DNA of 45,665 nucleotides, taken from positions 1 through 45,665 of the forward strand of contig CAZXFQ010000005.1 in the NCBI GenBank assembly GCA_964640685.1, given 5' to 3'. Below, one piece after another: positions 3,400 through 11,682 of this stretch. Both the position numbers and the translations under genes were made by a program. Below the pieces are notes generated by a model, which had not been told where the DNA came from, made no database searches, and saw only the letters and a list, made by a program, of their open reading frames with translations. Position 1 is the first letter of the stretch; every line of letters starts with the position of its first letter. The stretch comes from an uncultured Candidatus Saccharibacteria bacterium (GTDB lineage Bacteria > Patescibacteriota > Dojkabacteria > CALFHW01).

Positions 3400-3930
3400 T
3401 TATTTGATCGAATTTAAGGTGAATTCAATATAGTGAGGTCTAAATCCAACTTTACGTCGGTATCTAGATTTCGCTTTGAACTTAGCAGTAGTAACTTTAT
3501 CTCCTTTAACAATTTCGCCTAGCTTAAAGTCCACCTTATTTGTTAGATATGGTGTTCCGTATGTAAACTCGCTGCCAAAAACCAGTCCCAGCAAGTTTAC
3601 TTCTGGGGTTGCAGTTGGGTCTAGATCGATTCTACAAGTAATAGTTTCACCTTCAGCTACGATATATTGCATATTGTTGATCTCCAATATTGCCAACTTA
3701 GTTGCAATCTTATCAGTTCTTTCAGTAGTCATTTTGCTAGTTGTTTTAGCAGTTGCCTTGCTATCTGCCTTAATGTCTACTTTAGTTTTTGCAGTCTTCA
3801 TAGTTTTGGTAACTTCGCTAACGTCGTTAGTTTTGGTTGAAACTGTTGCGTTAGTAGCAGTTTCTGCTACATTAGTCTCTTGCTCTGTTTGTGTCTCTGC
3901 TACTTCAGTAGCTTCAGTCTTTTTTGCCAT
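3400..3930 (-). CDS. rplU: 50S ribosomal protein L21 with an N-terminal low-complexity extension of about 80 aa
   Basis: The C-terminal about 95 aa (MQYIVAEGETITCRIDL...KVTTAKFKAKSRYRRKVGFRPHYIEF) is L21-like. The first about 80 aa are T/K/A/E-rich. Confidence 0.85.
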   Translation of the reverse strand: MAKKTEATEVAETQTEQETNVAETATNATVSTKTNDVSEVTKTMKTAKTKVDIKADSKATAKTTSKMTTERTDKIATKLAILEINNMQYIVAEGETITCRIDLDPTATPEVNLLGLVFGSEFTYGTPYLTNKVDFKLGEIVKGDKVTTAKFKAKSRYRRKVGFRPHYIEFTLNSIK

Positions 3931-5369: not shown

Positions 5370-6239
5370 ATGTTAATTCCTCAGATAGATCCGAATAGTA
5401 TCAATACTCTAGTATACGACACCTATAAACGTCCAACAGGTGTATTTTTAATTAATAAACCTAGGGGCATCACTTCGCATGATGTAGTAGATGTAGCACG
5501 CAGAGCTCTGCATACTAAGCGAGTTGGACATGCAGGCGCGCTAGATCCCTTTGCTGAGGGCTTGTTAATAATTTTGGTAGGGAAATACACTCAGTACACC
5601 GAGGCTCTCATCGCTCAAGACAAGTCGTATTTAGCCAACGTAATTTTAGGAATACAGACCACTACTCAAGATCCCGAGGGTGACATTATTTTGCAATCAC
5701 AAGTGGATTTAGCTAAGCTTCCCAGCAGTGCTGCAATGAATGTGGCCTTATTGAAGCAGTTCAGTCCCAGCTATGAACAGTCAGTTCCCTTATTTAGTTC
5801 AGTCAAGCTTAACGGCGAGAAACTAAGAGTGTTGGCTAGGTTTGCACAGACGATTGAATATTTGGCAAATGACGAACTGAGGCTCACATTTGCTAAGGTT
5901 TTCAAGTATAACGGCACTAGCTCACTTGAGCATGTCATTAAGCTGCCTAAAAAGCATGTAAAGATCAATAAGCTCGAGCTCCTCTCAACTGCTGCCGTTA
6001 CTAAACTAGAGGTAATGGGTGCCGAAGTGGTTGGTCAATTTAGCAGTCTTGAATTTGCCGTGCATTGTTCAAAGGGCACATACATTAGACAATTGGCTCA
6101 AGATATTGGTGATTCTCTGGACTATCCTGCATTTTTATACGAACTTACTCGAGATTCAATCGGTGTTTTCGGCCTGGAACAGGCACTTTCTTTAGAAGCT
6201 TTAGAAGCACTGGGTAGTAAGTACGCTTTATCTCAGTAA
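5370..6239 (+). CDS. truB: tRNA pseudouridine(55) synthase
   Basis: GHAGALDPFAEGLL catalytic-Asp motif, N-terminal GVFLINKPRGITSHDVV, and GTYIRQLAQDIG. Confidence 0.9.
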   Translation: MLIPQIDPNSINTLVYDTYKRPTGVFLINKPRGITSHDVVDVARRALHTKRVGHAGALDPFAEGLLIILVGKYTQYTEALIAQDKSYLANVILGIQTTTQDPEGDIILQSQVDLAKLPSSAAMNVALLKQFSPSYEQSVPLFSSVKLNGEKLRVLARFAQTIEYLANDELRLTFAKVFKYNGTSSLEHVIKLPKKHVKINKLELLSTAAVTKLEVMGAEVVGQFSSLEFAVHCSKGTYIRQLAQDIGDSLDYPAFLYELTRDSIGVFGLEQALSLEALEALGSKYALSQ

Positions 6240-7026
6240 CTAAAAGAATCGCTAACACACAAGTGCAAGCAAGGTAGCTGATCTGCCCCCAGCTCATTAC
6301 CCCTGAATTCAAAGTAGTCATGCTAGTTTGTGACTGCATGAAATTAATCATACTGCTTTCGTTTCCATCGATCTGAAGTTCCATCCGCGTTTCCGCTTGT
6401 TTGTAATTTACTCTATCTAAATAATGATGTGGAGTAAGATAGTCTTGGTTTAAACGTCGATAAAATTCCTGTGCTGCTCTATCCTGATTCAATTGAGGGG
6501 TCTTTGTAGATATTGATACAGCGACTGCTGCCTCTGACTGTTTGAAAATTCCTGGCAGGGGGAATGAATCTGGACAAATGAGTGCAGTAAGGTTATTGAA
6601 TTGAAAATTATTGATTGCGACATTTTCAACTGACTGGCAAGTATTTATGAGTCGAGTTACCAAGTCGTCTGCAGTGTTTTTATATTTGAACTCTTGAATT
6701 GGCTCAGGAGCATTTGCTGCTTTCAGGAAAATACTGGCGGGACTGTTTAGCAGGCTGAAGTTGAGCTTTGTAGACTGCTCCATTGAAACATTTGGAGGCC
6801 GGCTTTCTAGGTTGGCTAGTAAATAGTAAAAACTATGACGGGGAATAATTCTTGCTTCACTGCTCAATGCTTGATAATTGCCAGAGTTGGTTTTCATCTG
6901 AAACTCAGCAAGATTCAAAGCAGCTGAGCTATTGTTGAAAACCTCTAGCCACTCAGCTTTACTATCAGTTCCAGCTGGATTTGGTAAGACTGCACTAATT
7001 ATTAGATTCTGTTGTAAGGGGTTCAT
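6145..7026 (-). CDS. lamin-tail-domain (LTD) protein with a single C-terminal TM helix
   Basis: N-terminus IISAVLPNPAGTDSKAEWLEVFNNSSAALNLAEF fits the LTD signature (I.Ev..NP.g.D...EwiEl.N). C-terminal TM ISYLACTCVLAILLV is followed by a basic tail. It is the last gene of the prfB-ftsEX-M23 transcription direction. Confidence 0.65.
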   Translation of the reverse strand: MNPLQQNLIISAVLPNPAGTDSKAEWLEVFNNSSAALNLAEFQMKTNSGNYQALSSEARIIPRHSFYYLLANLESRPPNVSMEQSTKLNFSLLNSPASIFLKAANAPEPIQEFKYKNTADDLVTRLINTCQSVENVAINNFQFNNLTALICPDSFPLPGIFKQSEAAVAVSISTKTPQLNQDRAAQEFYRRLNQDYLTPHHYLDRVNYKQAETRMELQIDGNESSMINFMQSQTSMTTLNSGVMSWGQISYLACTCVLAILLVTEIKRTYYPVLLKLLKKVPVPGRKHRLNLE

Positions 7027-7093: not shown

Positions 7094-8362
7094 TTACTTT
7101 AAATGCCAATATAGTGATTTCAGGCCCTGATTGCAATTGGCTTTGTTTTCGCAAAGTATTACATAGTTGGCTCCACCAGATTTGCATAACGAGTTGGTTG
7201 AGCTACAAGCCGAAAAGCCCCTAACATAATAACCATCATGTGCTGCATAAACCGGCGCATTATTAGTAGGATGAGCAATGTCTATGGCAGCATGAAACGA
7301 AGAGGTACCCTGTCCAAGATTACGTGCCCCGTAACCACTAGTAAATGCGAATGAGCCTTGTAATGGCCAAGATAATGAACCATTTCCAGCACAGAAACTA
7401 AATTTACCAGCGGGTAGATAGCCACAAGGATTTTGATAGCTACCGTTCAGCTGCACTCCGAAGTGTAAGTGGTAACCAGTTGTTAGTCCAGTCAGACCTT
7501 GTTGACCAATTATTGTACCTTTGCGTACAAAAGTGCCATTATTTACTGAACTAATCTGGTTAAACAGCCTTTGTTGCAGTAGTTCTTGGTCGGCTAAAAG
7601 TTTTGATTCCTGATCACTTAAAGATGCTTGGGCTTTTTTATTAGACTCAATTGACTTCTGTGATTCACTGCGCAAGTTGCTAAGCCGGTTTAGTTTTCCC
7701 TGTAGGTCTGTCTTCTTTTTATCTAGCTCTACGCGTTCTTTATCAAGCGAGCTTTTATCCAGGTTTACTTTCTCTTTATCTCCTTCTAGTCTGGTCTTAT
7801 CTGTCTTTAGCTTGTTATTCTCAGTTTCCAACTGCGTTAAAGCAGAATTAGTATCATCTTGAATTGAGCGTTGATATACATTTTGTTTTACGAAGTCAGT
7901 AGTTGGCTCCGTAAAGATCAAGCTAATGCTGTTGTTATAGGTCTTCTGATCCAAGTACATCTTAGTCAACTGTACATCTGCCTCATCCTCTAGTCCCTTA
8001 ATTTCAGACTTGGTTTTCTCGATCACTTTCTCAGTACTGGCAATATTGCTAGTGAGTATCTCGATTTGCAGATTTAATTCTTTAATAACCAATTCCTTCT
8101 CTTTAATCTCTTCTTCTAACAAGTCCCTTTCTCTGGCTACTCCACTGATTTCGTTTGTGTACTGCCCTTCTCTGTTTTTCTCACTTTTAATGGCATTATT
8201 GATGTCTTCCTTACGTTTCTTGAGGTCCTGTAATTGTTTCTGTACCGCTGCTAAATCTTCGGCAGGGCCTGCGTTAATCGCTCCAGGATATGAGGAAAAT
8301 AGCAGGATTAGCACTGTTAACACTAGCAGGATTTTCGCTTTTATTGAAATACTTTTTGGCAT
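7094..8362 (-). CDS. secreted coiled-coil peptidoglycan hydrolase with an M23 (LytM-type) domain whose halves are in permuted order
   Basis: Signal peptide, then about 240 aa of heptad-rich E/K/L coiled coil. Next comes VRKGTIIGQQGLTGLTTGYHLHFGVQLNGSYQNPCGYL (the HxH half), followed by WPLQGSFAFTSGYGAR...FHAAIDIA...PVYAAHDGYYV...SLYWHLK (the HxxxD half). It lies immediately downstream of ftsX. Confidence 0.8.
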   Translation of the reverse strand: MPKSISIKAKILLVLTVLILLFSSYPGAINAGPAEDLAAVQKQLQDLKKRKEDINNAIKSEKNREGQYTNEISGVARERDLLEEEIKEKELVIKELNLQIEILTSNIASTEKVIEKTKSEIKGLEDEADVQLTKMYLDQKTYNNSISLIFTEPTTDFVKQNVYQRSIQDDTNSALTQLETENNKLKTDKTRLEGDKEKVNLDKSSLDKERVELDKKKTDLQGKLNRLSNLRSESQKSIESNKKAQASLSDQESKLLADQELLQQRLFNQISSVNNGTFVRKGTIIGQQGLTGLTTGYHLHFGVQLNGSYQNPCGYLPAGKFSFCAGNGSLSWPLQGSFAFTSGYGARNLGQGTSSFHAAIDIAHPTNNAPVYAAHDGYYVRGFSACSSTNSLCKSGGANYVILCENKANCNQGLKSLYWHLK

Positions 8363-8419: not shown

Positions 8420-9337
8420 CTACTTAATATAGCGCCTTATTGCCACATAACTATTAATAACTCCTACAGCGATCCCCAAGGCTAATACCACAGCAAATCC
8501 CAGTGCCAAACGCGAGACCGTAATCGTCGGCCAATCCAAATTACTTACAAACCCTTTAGAAAAATTTAACTTGCCACTACTCCACTGCTGGAAAATAAAT
8601 ATGGCAATTCCTCCTACGATTAGATTGGAAAATAAGGCTCCCAAAAAGCCATAAATTGCGCCTTCAATAATAAATGGCAAGCGAATATATCCTAGACTGC
8701 CTCCCACCAGTTGCATAATCTCGATCTCTTCTGCCCTACTATGCATTCGGAATTCAACAGTTAGTAATGTAAATAGGACGATTACAATCAGCAACATTCC
8801 TATAATCAGCCCACCACCTAGCCTCAGCCAACTAAATACCTCACGAATATTCTCAGCAATTTCCCTAGTGAAGATAATCTGCTTGATCGCAGGATTTTCC
8901 GCCTTAGCCTTGTCTAGCTCGTCATTGACAGTATTGGCGAAGTCAAGTCTAGTAAGCCTCACAGCCAGTGTTGCTGGAAGCTGACGCTCCTCTACAGCGC
9001 GCGCTGCTAGCTCATTTACTTGTCTTTGGCTACGGGCAAAATCTTCTCGGGCTTTATCTTCACTTGTATATTCTGCATACTCCACTCCATTGAATTCCTC
9101 TACTTTGTTCTTTAGGGAATTGATTTCAGATTCCGGGGTACCTATTTCAAGCACCACGTAAATTTGCGGTTCTCTTTCTACACTGGTAAGGAATAATTCA
9201 GCAGTATATGCCAAAAATCCAAAAATAGTAGAGACTAATACTGCTAGAGCCATCACGGCTGTAGAGGCCCATGCTAACCAACCTGAGCGTCTTACCTGTT
9301 TTAATGATGTACGAAAAGCACTAACAATTTTTTCCAT
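8420..9337 (-). CDS. ftsX: cell-division ABC transporter permease-like protein FtsX
   Basis: About 300 aa with one N-terminal TM, a large extracytoplasmic loop and three C-terminal TMs. It follows ftsE by 22 nt. Confidence 0.85.
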   Translation of the reverse strand: MEKIVSAFRTSLKQVRRSGWLAWASTAVMALAVLVSTIFGFLAYTAELFLTSVEREPQIYVVLEIGTPESEINSLKNKVEEFNGVEYAEYTSEDKAREDFARSQRQVNELAARAVEERQLPATLAVRLTRLDFANTVNDELDKAKAENPAIKQIIFTREIAENIREVFSWLRLGGGLIIGMLLIVIVLFTLLTVEFRMHSRAEEIEIMQLVGGSLGYIRLPFIIEGAIYGFLGALFSNLIVGGIAIFIFQQWSSGKLNFSKGFVSNLDWPTITVSRLALGFAVVLALGIAVGVINSYVAIRRYIK

Positions 9338-9359: not shown

Positions 9360-10541
9360 TTATTCAGTAGTTAGGTAACGTTTGATTGCTTTGGCTAGTT
9401 GCCGGATTTCGGTTTTGTTAAGCTTTTCGTTCACTGTGCCAACGCCAGCTTTTAAGATATCTTCTACATCCAAGTAACCTAGTTCTGCAAGCTTATCCGT
9501 AAGTTTATTGGTAAGCTTCAAGACCTGCAAATTTACAGTATCTGCTTTAGCAAGAACCTCGACAACTGCTTCGGCTTGTGACTCCGAGGCACTTACAACC
9601 TCTAGGCTTAGATCAATAGTTGCTTCCCCAAGTGGCTTAGGGGCACCTAGAATGATAATTTCATTGGTGGCTATGCTGTTTACGGAAGGCAAATCAGGAG
9701 TATCTAAAGTTCCTGGTACCTCTGGGATTGAAAATGTTTCCTCACTAGGTTTTTCAGATGCATCTGACTTTACCGGGGCCTTTTGAGATTTGTCTTTAGA
9801 AGTTTGCTTTTTTTCTTCTTGCATCAAAATTTTCATTGAGTATTCGTCTAGCTCCTCATAAACGCCTTTTTTATCGTCTCGCAGTAATTTGCCGTCTGCC
9901 AGCTTAAGTACTCTTTTTTGCAAAGAATTGACAATATCTGTCCCGTGAGTAGACATTACAATGGTAGTGCCCCACTTATTGATCTTGGCTAAAATTTGCA
10001 CAATATCCCAAGCTGACTCTGGGTCAAGATTACCAGTTGGTTCATCTGCAATCAATAATTTGGGGTTATTAGCGATTGCACGCGCAATTGCCACTTTTTG
10101 CTTCTCCCCACCTGATAACTGTGTGGGGAAGGCATTGGCACGATGTGAAAGGTTAACAATGTCTAGTACATAAGGCACTGTTTCTTTAATCTCTTTGTTA
10201 CTCTGTCCAGCTGCTTCCATAGCGAAGGCCACGTTCTCGTATGCATTTTTGTGTTCAAGCAATTTATAATCTTGGAACACGATTCCGATTTTACGTCGCA
10301 GTTTATATACTCCGGAACGCCTCAGTCGACTAATGTCTTCGTCCTCAAAAAAGATCTTGCCTGCACTGGGTAACTCTTCACGAATAATCTGTCTCAAAAT
10401 AGTAGTTTTGCCTGAGCCGGAGGGACCGACTAAAAATACAAACTCACCTTGATTTATCTCAAAAGAAACATCATCCAAAGCTAAAATAGCTTTTGGAGAA
10501 GAGGGATAAATTTTAGTGACATTCAAAAATTGAATCATCAT
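9360..10541 (-). CDS. ftsE: cell-division ATP-binding protein FtsE with a C-terminal extension of about 170 aa
   Basis: Walker A GPSGSGKTT, signature LSGGEKQKVAIARA, Walker B LLIADEPTGNLD. The canonical FtsE part is aa 1-225. Residues 226-393 are an extra acidic/Ser-Pro linker plus a helical end. Confidence 0.9.
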   Translation of the reverse strand: MMIQFLNVTKIYPSSPKAILALDDVSFEINQGEFVFLVGPSGSGKTTILRQIIREELPSAGKIFFEDEDISRLRRSGVYKLRRKIGIVFQDYKLLEHKNAYENVAFAMEAAGQSNKEIKETVPYVLDIVNLSHRANAFPTQLSGGEKQKVAIARAIANNPKLLIADEPTGNLDPESAWDIVQILAKINKWGTTIVMSTHGTDIVNSLQKRVLKLADGKLLRDDKKGVYEELDEYSMKILMQEEKKQTSKDKSQKAPVKSDASEKPSEETFSIPEVPGTLDTPDLPSVNSIATNEIIILGAPKPLGEATIDLSLEVVSASESQAEAVVEVLAKADTVNLQVLKLTNKLTDKLAELGYLDVEDILKAGVGTVNEKLNKTEIRQLAKAIKRYLTTE

Positions 10542-10557
10542 TATAGTCTACCTAAGA

Positions 10558-11682
10558 CTAACCATTGCTAGCAAGTTTCGCAAGGTATTTCACGCCTGCA
10601 TTAATGAATTCCTGCAATTTCCCGTCCAGCACATCTTCTACTTGGTCAGTTTCCACTTTGGTACGTAGGTCTTTGACCAACTTGTAAGGATGTAAAACGT
10701 AATTCCTAATCTGACTCCCCCAAGAAGCGCTGAAGGACTTGCCGCCTTCATTGGAAATTAAGTTTTGACGTTTTTCCTCTTCTAGTAATGCTAATTTACC
10801 TCTAAGCAGTTCCATGGCTAGCTCTTTGTTTTGTAATTGGCTGCGTTCATTGGACGAAGAGACCAAGATTCCTGTCGGTATATGTCTTATTCGAACTGAG
10901 GTAGCAACTTTGTTGACGTTTTGACCACCAGCACCGCCTGAGCGCACTGCAGAAAAATCTATGTCTTCAGGTTTAATTTCAACGTTGGCGTCGCCACTAA
11001 CCACAGGTACAACTTCTACTCCTGCAAATGATGTCTGCCTTAGCCCCTGGGCATTGAAGGGGGAAATCCTCACAAGTCTGTGAGTCCCATGTTCCACTTT
11101 GAGGTAGCCATAGGCATAATCGCCTGCAACTCTTACACTTACTGAACTAATTCCAGCCTCGGTGCCTGGAGTTTTTTCTATGATCTCGCTAGTCCAGCCT
11201 TGCTTTTCAAAGTAACGTAAATACATTCTTAGCAGAATTTCTGTCCAATCATGTGCTTCAGTGCCACCCTGGCCAGCAAAGATACTAATTACTGCATTGA
11301 ATTTATCTAGTTTGCCACTTAGAAATCGCTTTAGTTTATATTCTTCAACCTCGGCTGTTAAGGTCAGCAGTATCTGTTGGTAATCATTCACATAGGCGGA
11401 TTCTCCATTTTTGATTTCGCTAGCCAAGAAATCTAGATCAGCAGCCAGCTGCAACAGTCTGTTAGACTGTTCTAGAGCTTTTTTTAACTGTGAAATCTTG
11501 CTATTGACTGTTTTGGCTCTTTCCTGGTTATTCCAAAGTTCTGGGTCTAAGGTATGTTGGTGTTCTGCAATTAGCTCTGTTTGTATACTTTGAATTTGTG
11601 CTTCTAATTCTAGAGAATTAACAGCAGAAATTGTTTGGGCGTGGTACTGTTGATCTGGGCTAAAATCCGTTGCTGCTGGCAT
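10558..11682 (-). CDS. prfB: peptide chain release factor 2 (single uninterrupted ORF)
   Basis: SPF tripeptide (RISPFNAQG) and GGQ motif (SGGAGGQNVNKV). Confidence 0.95.
   Translation of the reverse strand: MPAATDFSPDQQYHAQTISAVNSLELEAQIQSIQTELIAEHQHTLDPELWNNQERAKTVNSKISQLKKALEQSNRLLQLAADLDFLASEIKNGESAYVNDYQQILLTLTAEVEEYKLKRFLSGKLDKFNAVISIFAGQGGTEAHDWTEILLRMYLRYFEKQGWTSEIIEKTPGTEAGISSVSVRVAGDYAYGYLKVEHGTHRLVRISPFNAQGLRQTSFAGVEVVPVVSGDANVEIKPEDIDFSAVRSGGAGGQNVNKVATSVRIRHIPTGILVSSSNERSQLQNKELAMELLRGKLALLEEEKRQNLISNEGGKSFSASWGSQIRNYVLHPYKLVKDLRTKVETDQVEDVLDGKLQEFINAGVKYLAKLASNG

What the first reader, a model, noticed from the sequence alone, without database searches (positions are those of the whole stretch)
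7094..7534. FtsEX-linked coiled-coil hydrolase carries a circularly permuted M23 (LytM) catalytic domain
In every M23 peptidase I know, the order is WP..G...FG.R...HxGiDi...G.pV.A...G.V...(Y.HL)...V..G..V..GQ.IG..G.TG..tGpHLHFE...NG..vnP. Here the order is swapped. After the coiled coil comes TFVRKGTIIGQQGLTGLTTGYHLHFGVQLNGSYQNPCGYLP (aa 277-317), which is the canonical C-terminal half with HxH. That is followed by LSWPLQGSFAFTSGYGAR..FHAAIDIAHPTNNAPVYAAHDGYYV...ANYVILCEN...SLYWHLK-stop (aa 330-422), which is the canonical N-terminal half with HxxxD. It ends exactly where the first segment would normally continue. All zinc ligands (H357, D361, H298/H300) are retained, so the enzyme may be active. 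This contrasts with the degenerate LytM domain of EnvC. The gene sits directly after ftsE-ftsX, the position of EnvC/PcsB/RipC-type FtsEX-controlled hydrolases. A permuted catalytic domain changes where the regulatory coiled coil attaches relative to the active-site groove. That could be a different autoinhibition or activation geometry for FtsEX control.
Basis: partly seen in the sequence, partly recalled or inferred. Interest (0 to 1): 0.7.

Follow-up and report, generated by a model that had tools for sequence, protein, structure and literature searches.

The report
Circularly permuted M23 hydrolase beside FtsEX
In an uncultured ultrasmall (CPR/Patescibacteria) bacterium, the cell-wall-cutting enzyme encoded next to the division regulator FtsEX has the two halves of its catalytic domain in swapped order; a small family shares this swap, and it puts the regulatory coiled coil's attachment point next to the active-site strand.

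Summary
Confirmed. Window 7094-8362 (-) encodes a 422-aa secreted protein with a long antiparallel coiled coil followed by an M23 (LytM) metallopeptidase domain whose halves are swapped. The HxH half (aa ~270-317) precedes the HxxxD...YxHL half (aa ~330-422), and the protein ends two residues after the catalytic His of YWHL. Profile alignments to solved M23 structures are non-collinear, with the break 2-3 residues after the canonical YxHL strand. Doubled canonical domains align collinearly. At least 59 clusters (50% identity) among 1.84 billion representatives share this order. All five catalytic or zinc-binding residues are invariant, as are two linker cysteines; a second cysteine pair is conserved in 34/35. 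AlphaFold gives one compact domain (pLDDT 95, pTM 0.89), but Foldseek could not superpose it on M23, so the fold is not confirmed structurally. In 6 of 7 informative loci the gene directly follows ftsX. hhalign (E 1e-40) shows whole-protein homology to canonical-order coiled-coil M23 proteins that follow ftsX in Firmicutes. I found no published description. Verdict: a new variant of a known kind, probably an active FtsEX-controlled endopeptidase. The proposed change in activation geometry is untested inference.

The parts
7094..8362 (-). Whole gene: 422-aa secreted coiled-coil protein with a circularly permuted M23 domain (stop codon at 7094-7096)
   Evidence: ORF; Pfam M23 44.7 bits; family profile 209.9 bits over hmm 2-162, and the only such ORF in the window
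8270..8362 (-). N-terminal signal peptide or membrane anchor (aa 1-31: basic n-region, hydrophobic ILLVLTVLILLF, then AINA/GP)
   Evidence: Read directly from the sequence; AlphaFold helix 7-23 followed by a low-confidence linker
7928..8266 (-). Coiled-coil helix 1 (aa 33-145)
   Evidence: AlphaFold full-length model; aligns column by column with helix 1 of the canonical Firmicutes FtsEX-linked proteins in hhalign
7898..7927 (-). Hairpin tip loop (aa 146-155), flanked by the nearly invariant Y136 and Y163 and the IQxxTN motif; inferred FtsX-binding region
   Evidence: pLDDT below 50 at aa 144-155; conservation in A2; the position corresponds to the CC_PcsB Pfam match in the canonical counterparts. 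FtsX binding is inferred by analogy with EnvC-FtsX
7562..7897 (-). Coiled-coil helix 2 (aa 156-267), running straight into the catalytic domain; its last turns occupy the position of EnvC's restraining arm
   Evidence: AlphaFold model; Foldseek best match is EnvC in the FtsE/FtsX/EnvC complex 8tzl_E, with PcsB, EnvC-FtsX and RipA-N also listed
7412..7555 (-). M23 'C-half', now placed first (aa 270-317): VxxGxxIGxxGxTGxxTGxHLHF...NP, with H298 (catalytic) and H300 (zinc ligand)
   Evidence: Pfam HMM 55-96; PDB alignments to the late part of M23 chains; H298 and H300 invariant in 35/35
7376..7411 (-). New linker joining the old C-terminus to the old N-terminus (aa 318-329). C324 lies inside it and C313 lies just upstream in the preceding C-half part; both are invariant
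   Evidence: Unaligned to canonical M23; C313 and C324 are Cys in 35/35
7097..7375 (-). M23 'N-half', now placed last (aa 330-422): WPxxG...SGYGxR...FH357xxxD361...AAHDG..., a Cys-rich insert (C386, C393, C404, C410), then Y418-W-H420-L-K-stop
   Evidence: PDB alignments to the early part of M23 chains, ending at the canonical YxHL; hhalign to the canonical N-half; H357, D361 and H420 invariant
8420..9337 (-). ftsX (305 aa): extracellular domain plus permease domain; presumed partner
   Evidence: Pfam FtsX_ECD and FtsX; NCBIfam FtsX models at E 1e-44; directly upstream of the permuted gene in 6 of 7 informative loci
9360..10541 (-). ftsE (393 aa): ABC ATPase with a ~170-aa C-terminal extension
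   Evidence: NCBIfam TIGR02673 FtsE 266.2 bits, above the 264.85 cutoff; the extension has no Pfam match

Best explanation
The gene encodes the FtsEX-coupled peptidoglycan hydrolase of a CPR/Patescibacteria bacterium. It is a secreted or anchored protein with an EnvC/PcsB-like antiparallel coiled-coil hairpin and a C-terminal M23 (LytM-type) zinc endopeptidase domain that is circularly permuted.

Compared with the canonical-order coiled-coil M23 proteins that follow ftsX in Firmicutes, the last ~45 residues of the domain (the HxH segment) now sit between the coiled coil and the rest of the domain. A ~12-residue linker bracketed by cysteines joins the old termini. The chain now ends two residues after the catalytic His of the YxHL strand.

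Shown here: the permuted order, its conservation in a family, the invariance of all catalytic residues, the whole-protein homology to the canonical family, and the recurrent ftsE-ftsX-gene order.

Inferred: the two segments refold into one normal M23 active site and the enzyme cuts peptidoglycan cross-links itself, as PcsB, CwlO and RipC do, rather than activating an amidase as EnvC does. The hairpin tip is inferred to bind the FtsX extracellular domain, and ATP-driven movement of FtsEX to travel along helix 2 to release autoinhibition. Because helix 2 now enters the sheet at the strand next to the catalytic-His strand, instead of at the peripheral N-terminus, the coupling between coiled coil and active site is probably more direct than in EnvC.
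For: Permutation:
- Non-collinear alignments to Pfam and PDB M23.
- The break falls within 2-3 residues after the canonical YxHL.
- Doubled canonical domains align collinearly over hmm 14-162 at 85-87 bits.

Family:
- 59 of the top 150 representatives have HxH before HxxxD and match in one stretch, mostly at the C-terminus of 410-445 aa proteins. Canonical proteins are NC and tandem ones NCNC.

Active-site retention:
- H298, H300, H357, D361 and H420 are invariant in 35 sequences that are 26-50% identical to the target. Their roles follow the M23 review.

Fold:
- AlphaFold domain model has pLDDT 95.2 and pTM 0.89. The full-length model has helices 33-145 and 156-267 plus the domain.
- Foldseek's best full-length match is EnvC in the FtsEX-EnvC complex.

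Context:
- prfB-ftsE-ftsX-gene order in the window/L089, L004, L085/86 and L092; ftsE-ftsX-gene in L003; ftsX-gene in L090.

Ancestry:
- hhalign A2 vs A6 gives probability 100%, E 1.4e-40 and 327 columns. The coiled coil aligns throughout, the target's HxH segment is skipped as an insertion, and the canonical C-terminal segment is left unaligned. blastp HSP geometry agrees.
- 28 Firmicutes loci have ftsX followed by a canonical-order intact M23, giving Pfam 2-96/96 plus CC_PcsB.

Host:
- The nearest named UvrB relatives are Candidatus Dojkabacteria and Patescibacteria.
Against: - No structural superposition on a solved M23 was obtained. Foldseek with the domain-only model returned no significant PDB hit at all. 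This is what a sequence-order-dependent aligner might do with a permuted domain, but it is not positive evidence.
- No coordinates were available, so I could not measure the geometry of the five catalytic residues or the position of helix 2 relative to the groove.
- Activity, zinc binding and FtsX binding are untested.
- Linkage to ftsEX is not universal (L087). A short subfamily with the same permuted domain follows an HtrA-like protease gene instead, so the domain is not tied to FtsEX control as such.
- The target's coiled coil does not itself reach the CC_PcsB Pfam model.
Confidence: 0.8

Rival explanations
1. It is an EnvC-type regulator. The permuted LytM domain does not cleave peptidoglycan itself but serves as a docking and activation surface for a separate amidase, released by FtsEX.
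For: The overall architecture and the best structural match are EnvC in the FtsEX-EnvC complex. EnvC works this way.
Against: EnvC lacks the catalytic residues needed for hydrolysis. Here all five are invariant across a divergent family, which implies selection for catalysis. The homologous canonical Firmicutes proteins also keep both motifs.
Confidence: 0.1
2. The two segments do not refold into one intramolecular M23 domain. Either they are remnants of two decayed domains, or the halves complement each other between two chains of a coiled-coil dimer (a domain swap).
For: Foldseek did not retrieve M23 structures for the model. Coiled-coil proteins often dimerise, and PcsB crystallised as a dimer (my own knowledge, PDB 4cgk).
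Against: The segments are exactly complementary, with no overlap and a gap of 2-3 canonical residues. Every catalytic residue is invariant in both halves. AlphaFold predicts one compact unit at pTM 0.89 and pLDDT 95. The linker with two invariant Cys is conserved.
Confidence: 0.06
3. It is an artefact: a mis-assembly, frameshift or pseudogene that scrambles a normal M23 gene.
For: The window comes from a metagenome-type assembly, and one related contig (L002) has a chimeric-looking 5' end.
Against: The same order and the same C-terminus (YWHL plus 0-5 residues) occur in dozens of independent assemblies from JGI, NCBI, ENA and Logan, down to 23-35% identity. The ORF is uninterrupted, and the next gene starts 67 nt downstream.
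Confidence: 0.01

Closest known systems
Firmicutes FtsEX-adjacent coiled-coil M23 peptidases (Pfam CC_PcsB + Peptidase_M23; for example the ORFs after ftsX in L005, L007, L014 from Oscillospiraceae, Acetobacterium and Ammonifex MAGs)
   Same: Same size (~380-445 aa) and the same slot directly after ftsX. N-terminal signal, two-helix coiled coil with a conserved tip motif, and a C-terminal M23 with intact HxxxD, YxH and HxH. Whole-protein homology by hhalign at probability 100%, E 1.4e-40.
   Different: Their M23 domain is in canonical order (Pfam 2-96/96, ~110 bits). In the window's family the final HxH segment has moved to between the coiled coil and the HxxxD half. The family also has four conserved Cys that the consensus of the canonical set lacks.
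EnvC (E. coli, V. cholerae), the FtsEX-controlled amidase activator
   Same: Coiled-coil hairpin plus C-terminal LytM/M23 domain, functional pairing with ftsEX, and the best Foldseek match (8tzl_E; also 6tpi_A). The mechanism of FtsX binding and a restraining arm is described in PMC7668044.
   Different: EnvC's LytM domain is catalytically degenerate and in canonical order, with a kinked restraining-arm helix between coiled coil and domain. Here the catalytic residues are invariant, the order is permuted, and helix 2 is predicted to be continuous up to the domain.
PcsB (Streptococcus pneumoniae), CwlO (Bacillus subtilis), RipC (mycobacteria and corynebacteria)
   Same: FtsEX-activated hydrolases of bacteria without an outer membrane, in which the coiled-coil protein carries the catalytic domain itself. 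PcsB 4cgk appears among the Foldseek hits. One family member carries the JGI name 'CwlO-like'.
   Different: Their catalytic domains are CHAP or NlpC/P60 cysteine peptidases, not M23 metallopeptidases.
Circularly permuted NlpC/P60 families (YaeF/poxvirus G6R and LRAT-like)
   Same: A precedent for a peptidoglycan-hydrolase superfamily in which the catalytic residues are swapped in sequence by circular permutation (Anantharaman & Aravind 2003, as cited in PMC6403190).
   Different: A different fold and different chemistry, and not FtsEX-linked.

Membership tests
Peptidase family M23 (MEROPS M23 / Pfam PF01551) | Zinc-binding and catalytic motifs H(x)nD and HxH, plus the additional His about 30 residues before HxH | tested here: met
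   H357xxxD361, H298xH300 and H420 in YWHL are present and invariant in 35/35 family members. The extra His lies after HxH in sequence because of the permutation.
Peptidase family M23 (MEROPS M23 / Pfam PF01551) | Score above Pfam's gathering threshold | tested here: met
   44.7 bits against a 28.7-bit cutoff, in 2 stretches
Peptidase family M23 (MEROPS M23 / Pfam PF01551) | Collinear match to the domain model (HxxxD ... YxHL ... HxH) | tested here: not met
   The best stretch covers only HMM 55-96. The early part of the model matches downstream of it. Canonical controls match 2-96/96.
Peptidase family M23 (MEROPS M23 / Pfam PF01551) | M23 three-dimensional fold with the catalytic residues around one zinc site | tested here: inconclusive
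   The AlphaFold domain model is a single compact unit (pLDDT 95.2, pTM 0.89). Foldseek gave no significant PDB match, and no permutation-aware aligner or coordinates were available.
Peptidase family M23 (MEROPS M23 / Pfam PF01551) | Zinc-dependent peptidoglycan endopeptidase activity | not testable with these tools
   Needs biochemistry.
FtsEX-coupled coiled-coil hydrolases and activators (EnvC/PcsB/CwlO/RipC class) | Gene adjacent to ftsE-ftsX | tested here: met
   In the window and in 5 other distinct loci, 6 of 7 with usable upstream sequence.
FtsEX-coupled coiled-coil hydrolases and activators (EnvC/PcsB/CwlO/RipC class) | Secretion signal, long antiparallel coiled-coil hairpin, C-terminal wall-hydrolase-type domain | tested here: met
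   AlphaFold helices 33-145 and 156-267 followed by the domain. The top Foldseek hit is EnvC in the FtsEX complex. hhalign to FtsEX-linked Firmicutes proteins that carry CC_PcsB.
FtsEX-coupled coiled-coil hydrolases and activators (EnvC/PcsB/CwlO/RipC class) | Physical binding of the coiled coil to the FtsX extracellular domain, and ATP-dependent activation | not testable with these tools
   Inferred only from gene order and homology.
EnvC proper (amidase activator) | Degenerate LytM domain lacking the catalytic residues; acts through AmiA/AmiB | tested here: not met
   All catalytic residues are invariant. NCBIfam EnvC (NF008644) is not among the target's hits at E<=1.
PcsB | C-terminal CHAP domain and the CC_PcsB coiled-coil model | tested here: not met
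   No CHAP or CC_PcsB hit for the target at E<=10.

The most novel reading that the evidence does not exclude
The permutation is an adaptive re-wiring of FtsEX control rather than a neutral rearrangement. Regulatory helix 2 is now attached to the strand beside the catalytic-His strand, and the chain ends at that His. In this reading FtsEX mechanotransmission gates catalysis by directly positioning or distorting the active-site sheet or the free C-terminal YWHL strand, instead of removing a steric 'restraining arm' as in EnvC. The conserved four-Cys set would staple the re-joined termini to make this possible.
Probability: 0.15. Interest if true: 0.8.

Novelty: new variant of a known kind. Interest (0 to 1): 0.6.

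Why it matters
M23/LytM domains are among the most studied peptidoglycan hydrolases. They include lysostaphin, LytM, EnvC, NlpD and ShyA, and are defined by a fixed HxxxD ... HxH order. A recent family-wide review does not mention permutation, and five full-text searches found no description of a permuted M23 domain.

A naturally permuted family with a conserved, catalytically intact active site has three uses:
- It explains why domain annotation sees only a weak half-domain in these proteins (Pfam 'weak' or 'faint' flags).
- It is a natural experiment on how the FtsEX coiled-coil partner transmits force to its enzymatic domain, because the attachment point has moved while the rest of the protein stayed homologous to a canonical family.
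- It identifies the likely septal hydrolase of Dojkabacteria-like and some other CPR bacteria, whose division machinery is essentially uncharacterised.

Tried and rejected
- Foldseek of the full-length model against PDB was dominated by coiled-coil matches and said nothing about the M23 domain.
- Foldseek of the domain-only model against PDB gave no significant hit. I treat this as inconclusive, not as evidence against M23.
- Foldseek against BFVD gave one unnamed hit, A0A510E7V3_3 (E 4e-5, TMq 0.55), which I could not identify. tblastn of the domain against 50,697 phage genomes found nothing.
- The word-index homologue search was nearly blind to the family, with 1 and 9 hits. The exhaustive HMMER search was needed.
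- The genome-contig scan was swamped by the generic TGxHLHF pattern and gave few family loci: L002, L004 and the truncated L003. It did supply the canonical Firmicutes controls.
- The metagenome scan with a family-specific pattern gave only 4 loci.
- Tandem-M23 proteins (NCNC order, e.g. P0063 and P0108) were considered as duplication-deletion intermediates. I rejected them because their N-terminal regions are unrelated, with no coiled coil.
- The promoter and terminator scan was at chance level and neither supports nor contradicts co-transcription.
- The FtsE C-terminal extension gave no Pfam match.
Full report
**1. The observation**

The minus-strand ORF 7094..8362 encodes a 422-aa protein. 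The gene lies 57 nt downstream of ftsX (8420-9337; Pfam FtsX_ECD and FtsX). Upstream of that are ftsE (9360-10541; NCBIfam FtsE 266 bits) and prfB (10558-11682), all on the same strand. A lamin-tail-domain (LTD) protein gene follows 67 nt downstream.

**2. Is the order really swapped?**

Pfam Peptidase_M23 passes its threshold (44.7 vs 28.7 bits). The best stretch places aa 271-312 on HMM positions 55-96 of 96, the end of the model. Against solved structures, phmmer aligns query 326-379 to residues 119-170 of chain 6jmx_A and query 273-316 to residues 203-246 of the same chain, so the order is inverted.

A profile of 55 family domains (A4) against 5j1l_A aligns profile 78-162 to chain 39-117 and profile 16-60 to chain 121-165. 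The family's last residues therefore match canonical residue 117 (the YxHL strand), and its first domain residues match canonical residue 121. This is a clean cut-and-swap with nothing missing or duplicated.

As a formal permutation test I doubled eleven canonical M23 domains. Single copies give two non-collinear hits, for example P0081 with hmm 73-162 on residues 16-97 and hmm 15-61 on residues 100-146. The doubled copies of two of them give one collinear hit across the whole profile: P0081 at hmm 15-161 (86.9 bits) and P0148 at hmm 14-162 (84.7 bits). In the other nine the junction-spanning hit runs collinearly from about hmm 12-17 to about hmm 122-131.

**3. A conserved family, not a one-off**

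An exhaustive HMMER search of 1.84 billion cluster representatives found 25,836 M23-like proteins at E<=1e-3. Among the top 150 listed, 59 have HxH before HxxxD (spacing ~50-75 aa) and match the permuted profile in a single stretch. Most of these matches lie at the C-terminus of 410-445 aa proteins that end at or just after YWHL. Canonical M23 proteins in the same list are HxxxD...HxH, and tandem ones alternate.

In a 35-sequence full-length alignment (26-50% identity to the target), H298, H300, H357, D361, H420, C313, C324, G289, G292 and G377 are invariant. According to the M23 review, H357, D361 and H300 correspond to the zinc ligands. H298 and H420 correspond to the two water-activating histidines. 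Selection has therefore preserved a complete active site. C404 and C410 are Cys in 34/35, and C386 and C393 in about 60%.

The family is rare. Clusters hold 1-7 members, mostly from metagenome assemblies.

**4. Structure**

With the 35-sequence alignment, AlphaFold2 predicts an N-terminal hydrophobic helix, two very long helices (33-145 and 156-267) joined by a low-confidence tip (144-155), and a confident β-rich domain from ~270 to 422. Mean pLDDT is 83.7. Foldseek's best PDB match is EnvC in the V. cholerae FtsE/FtsX/EnvC complex (8tzl_E). PcsB, EnvC-FtsX and the RipA N-terminal domain are also listed.

The domain alone, with 55 sequences, gives pLDDT 95.2 and pTM 0.89, which indicates one compact unit. 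However, Foldseek found no significant PDB match for it, not even M23. Foldseek aligns in sequence order, and I had no coordinates or permutation-aware aligner. The claim that the halves rebuild a normal M23 fold therefore rests on sequence complementarity, invariant catalytic residues and the confident single-domain prediction. I rate the fold test as inconclusive.

**5. Context and host**

Where upstream DNA is available, the long form directly follows ftsX in six of seven distinct loci:
- window/L089, L004, L085/86 and L092: prfB-ftsE-ftsX-gene (L004 and L085/86 have one extra small gene after prfB)
- L003: ftsE-ftsX-gene
- L090: ftsX-gene

L087 is the exception. L085 carries two tandem permuted paralogs.

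A shorter subfamily (300-336 aa; membrane anchor plus a shorter helical region) has the same permuted domain. One member, P0040, carries the NCBI label Candidatus Dojkabacteria. In the one case examined (P0072, loci L083/84) the gene follows an HtrA-like protease gene rather than ftsX.

The window's UvrB is closest, among named proteins, to Candidatus Dojkabacteria (WS6) and 'Patescibacteria group' sequences at 59-62% identity. Another member is from a Candidatus Saccharibacteria MAG. The host is therefore a CPR bacterium.

**6. Relationship to known proteins**

The genome scan also returned at least 28 Firmicutes loci in which ftsX is followed immediately by a 380-445 aa protein with a canonical-order M23 that keeps both motifs. 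The two examined (L005, L007) carry Pfam CC_PcsB plus a full collinear M23.

Profile-profile comparison of the permuted family (A2) with 22 of these proteins (A6) gives probability 100%, E 1.4e-40 and 327 aligned columns. Both coiled-coil helices and the conserved tip motif align. The target's HxH segment (aa ~270-325) is then skipped as an insertion, and the HxxxD half aligns up to YxH. The canonical protein's own C-terminal HxH segment is left over.

blastp shows the same geometry. For L007, target 7-421 aligns to subject 10-341, and target 272-316 aligns to subject 345-389. The permuted family is thus a derivative of, or sister to, the canonical FtsEX-linked coiled-coil M23 family.

The usual duplication-then-truncation route is plausible, but I found no intermediates. 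The tandem-M23 proteins in the hit list have unrelated N-termini.

**7. Mechanism**

Shown:
- the permutation
- conservation of the active site
- an EnvC/PcsB-like coiled coil
- the recurrent ftsEX linkage
- homology to the canonical family

Inferred:
- The enzyme is an active peptidoglycan endopeptidase, like the FtsEX partners of other bacteria without an outer membrane, which carry their own catalytic domain.
- The hairpin tip, flanked by conserved Y136 and Y163, binds the FtsX extracellular domain.
- ATP-driven FtsEX movement is passed along helix 2.

In EnvC a kinked restraining arm between coiled coil and LytM domain blocks the groove. Here helix 2 is predicted to run uninterrupted into the strand that, in canonical order, follows the catalytic-His strand. 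The polypeptide ends two residues after that His. The old terminal regions, which per the review contain groove loops 1 and 4, are tied together by a short Cys-bracketed linker. The coiled coil is therefore attached at the core of the active-site sheet rather than at its edge. This could change how autoinhibition and activation work, but nothing here tests that.

**8. Novelty and score**

Five full-text searches found no description of a permuted M23/LytM domain:
- circular permutation + M23 + peptidase
- circularly permuted + LytM
- FtsEX + Patescibacteria
- permuted / M23 / EnvC
- circular permutation + lysostaphin

The 2022 family review contains no 'permut' string. Circular permutation is known in the NlpC/P60 hydrolase superfamily and between different families of the wider hybrid-barrel superfold. 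The phenomenon therefore has precedents, and the system it sits in (FtsEX plus a coiled-coil hydrolase) is well known.

I rate it a new variant of a known kind, interest 0.6. A peptidoglycan-hydrolase or FtsEX specialist would be surprised and could use it as a natural experiment. It does not overturn the known logic of the system.

Noticed in passing
window 9360-9866 (- strand; FtsE aa ~226-393); also L085 2033-3487: FtsE carries a ~170-aa C-terminal extension beyond the ABC ATPase domain (393 aa in total; 484 aa in L085). It starts with a charged, low-complexity stretch and ends in a helical segment. There is no significant Pfam match (best E 0.02).
   Followed up: partly
window 6145-7026 (-); L082 1432-2409; L090 ~2280; L091 ~900: A lamin-tail-domain (LTD) protein with a C-terminal hydrophobic segment is conserved immediately downstream of the permuted M23 gene in several relatives. 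It may belong to the same operon or envelope module.
   Followed up: partly
window 6145-6239; L082 2279-2409: The convergent truB (+) and LTD (-) ORFs overlap at their 3' ends by ~95 nt in the window and ~130 nt in L082. This is an unusually long convergent overlap that is conserved in synteny.
   Followed up: no
L085 4501-5790 and 5842-7143 (also L086): Two tandem paralogs of the coiled-coil permuted M23 protein follow ftsX in one lineage. Both end in YLHLSSY or YWHLSGF.
   Followed up: partly
L083/L084 5001-5903; proteins P0037, P0039, P0040, P0042-P0046, P0049, P0050, P0072: A short subfamily (300-336 aa, with one 401-aa member; N-terminal membrane helix and a shorter helical region) has the same permuted M23. 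One member, P0040, is labelled Candidatus Dojkabacteria by NCBI. In L083/84 the gene starts at the stop codon of an HtrA-like Trypsin-PDZ protease gene instead of following ftsX.
   Followed up: partly
window 7097-7426 (aa 313-422): Four family-specific cysteines are conserved: C313 and C324 in 35/35, C404 and C410 in 34/35. A further pair, C386 and C393, is present in ~60%. The consensus of the canonical Firmicutes counterparts has none of them. They could form disulfide staples or a structural metal site stabilising the re-joined termini and the Cys-rich insert.
   Followed up: partly
proteins P0028, P0029, P0034, P0047, P0055, P0068, P0086: One subgroup extends past YxHL with a conserved tail of the form C-T-A/G-E-P-x-S-S-x-R-S-C-K (two more Cys). 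This shows that the new C-terminus tolerates additions.
   Followed up: no
BFVD entry A0A510E7V3_3: This was the only significant structural neighbour of the domain model: E 4e-5, TMq 0.55, 184 columns, 22% identity. It is a segment of a large unnamed viral protein and could be a tandem or a permuted M23 in a phage structural protein.
   Followed up: no
window 3400-3930 (-): Ribosomal protein L21 carries a ~79-aa N-terminal extension rich in T, K, A and E (176 aa in total, against 137 aa in the syntenic L082).
   Followed up: no
L004 (CAYMSV010000004.1): This MAG contig is labelled 'uncultured Pseudomonadales', but it carries the CPR-style prfB-ftsE-ftsX-permuted M23 cluster and a 1100-aa surface protein. 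The label may be a binning or classification error. Its ftsE contains a masked run of N.
   Followed up: no
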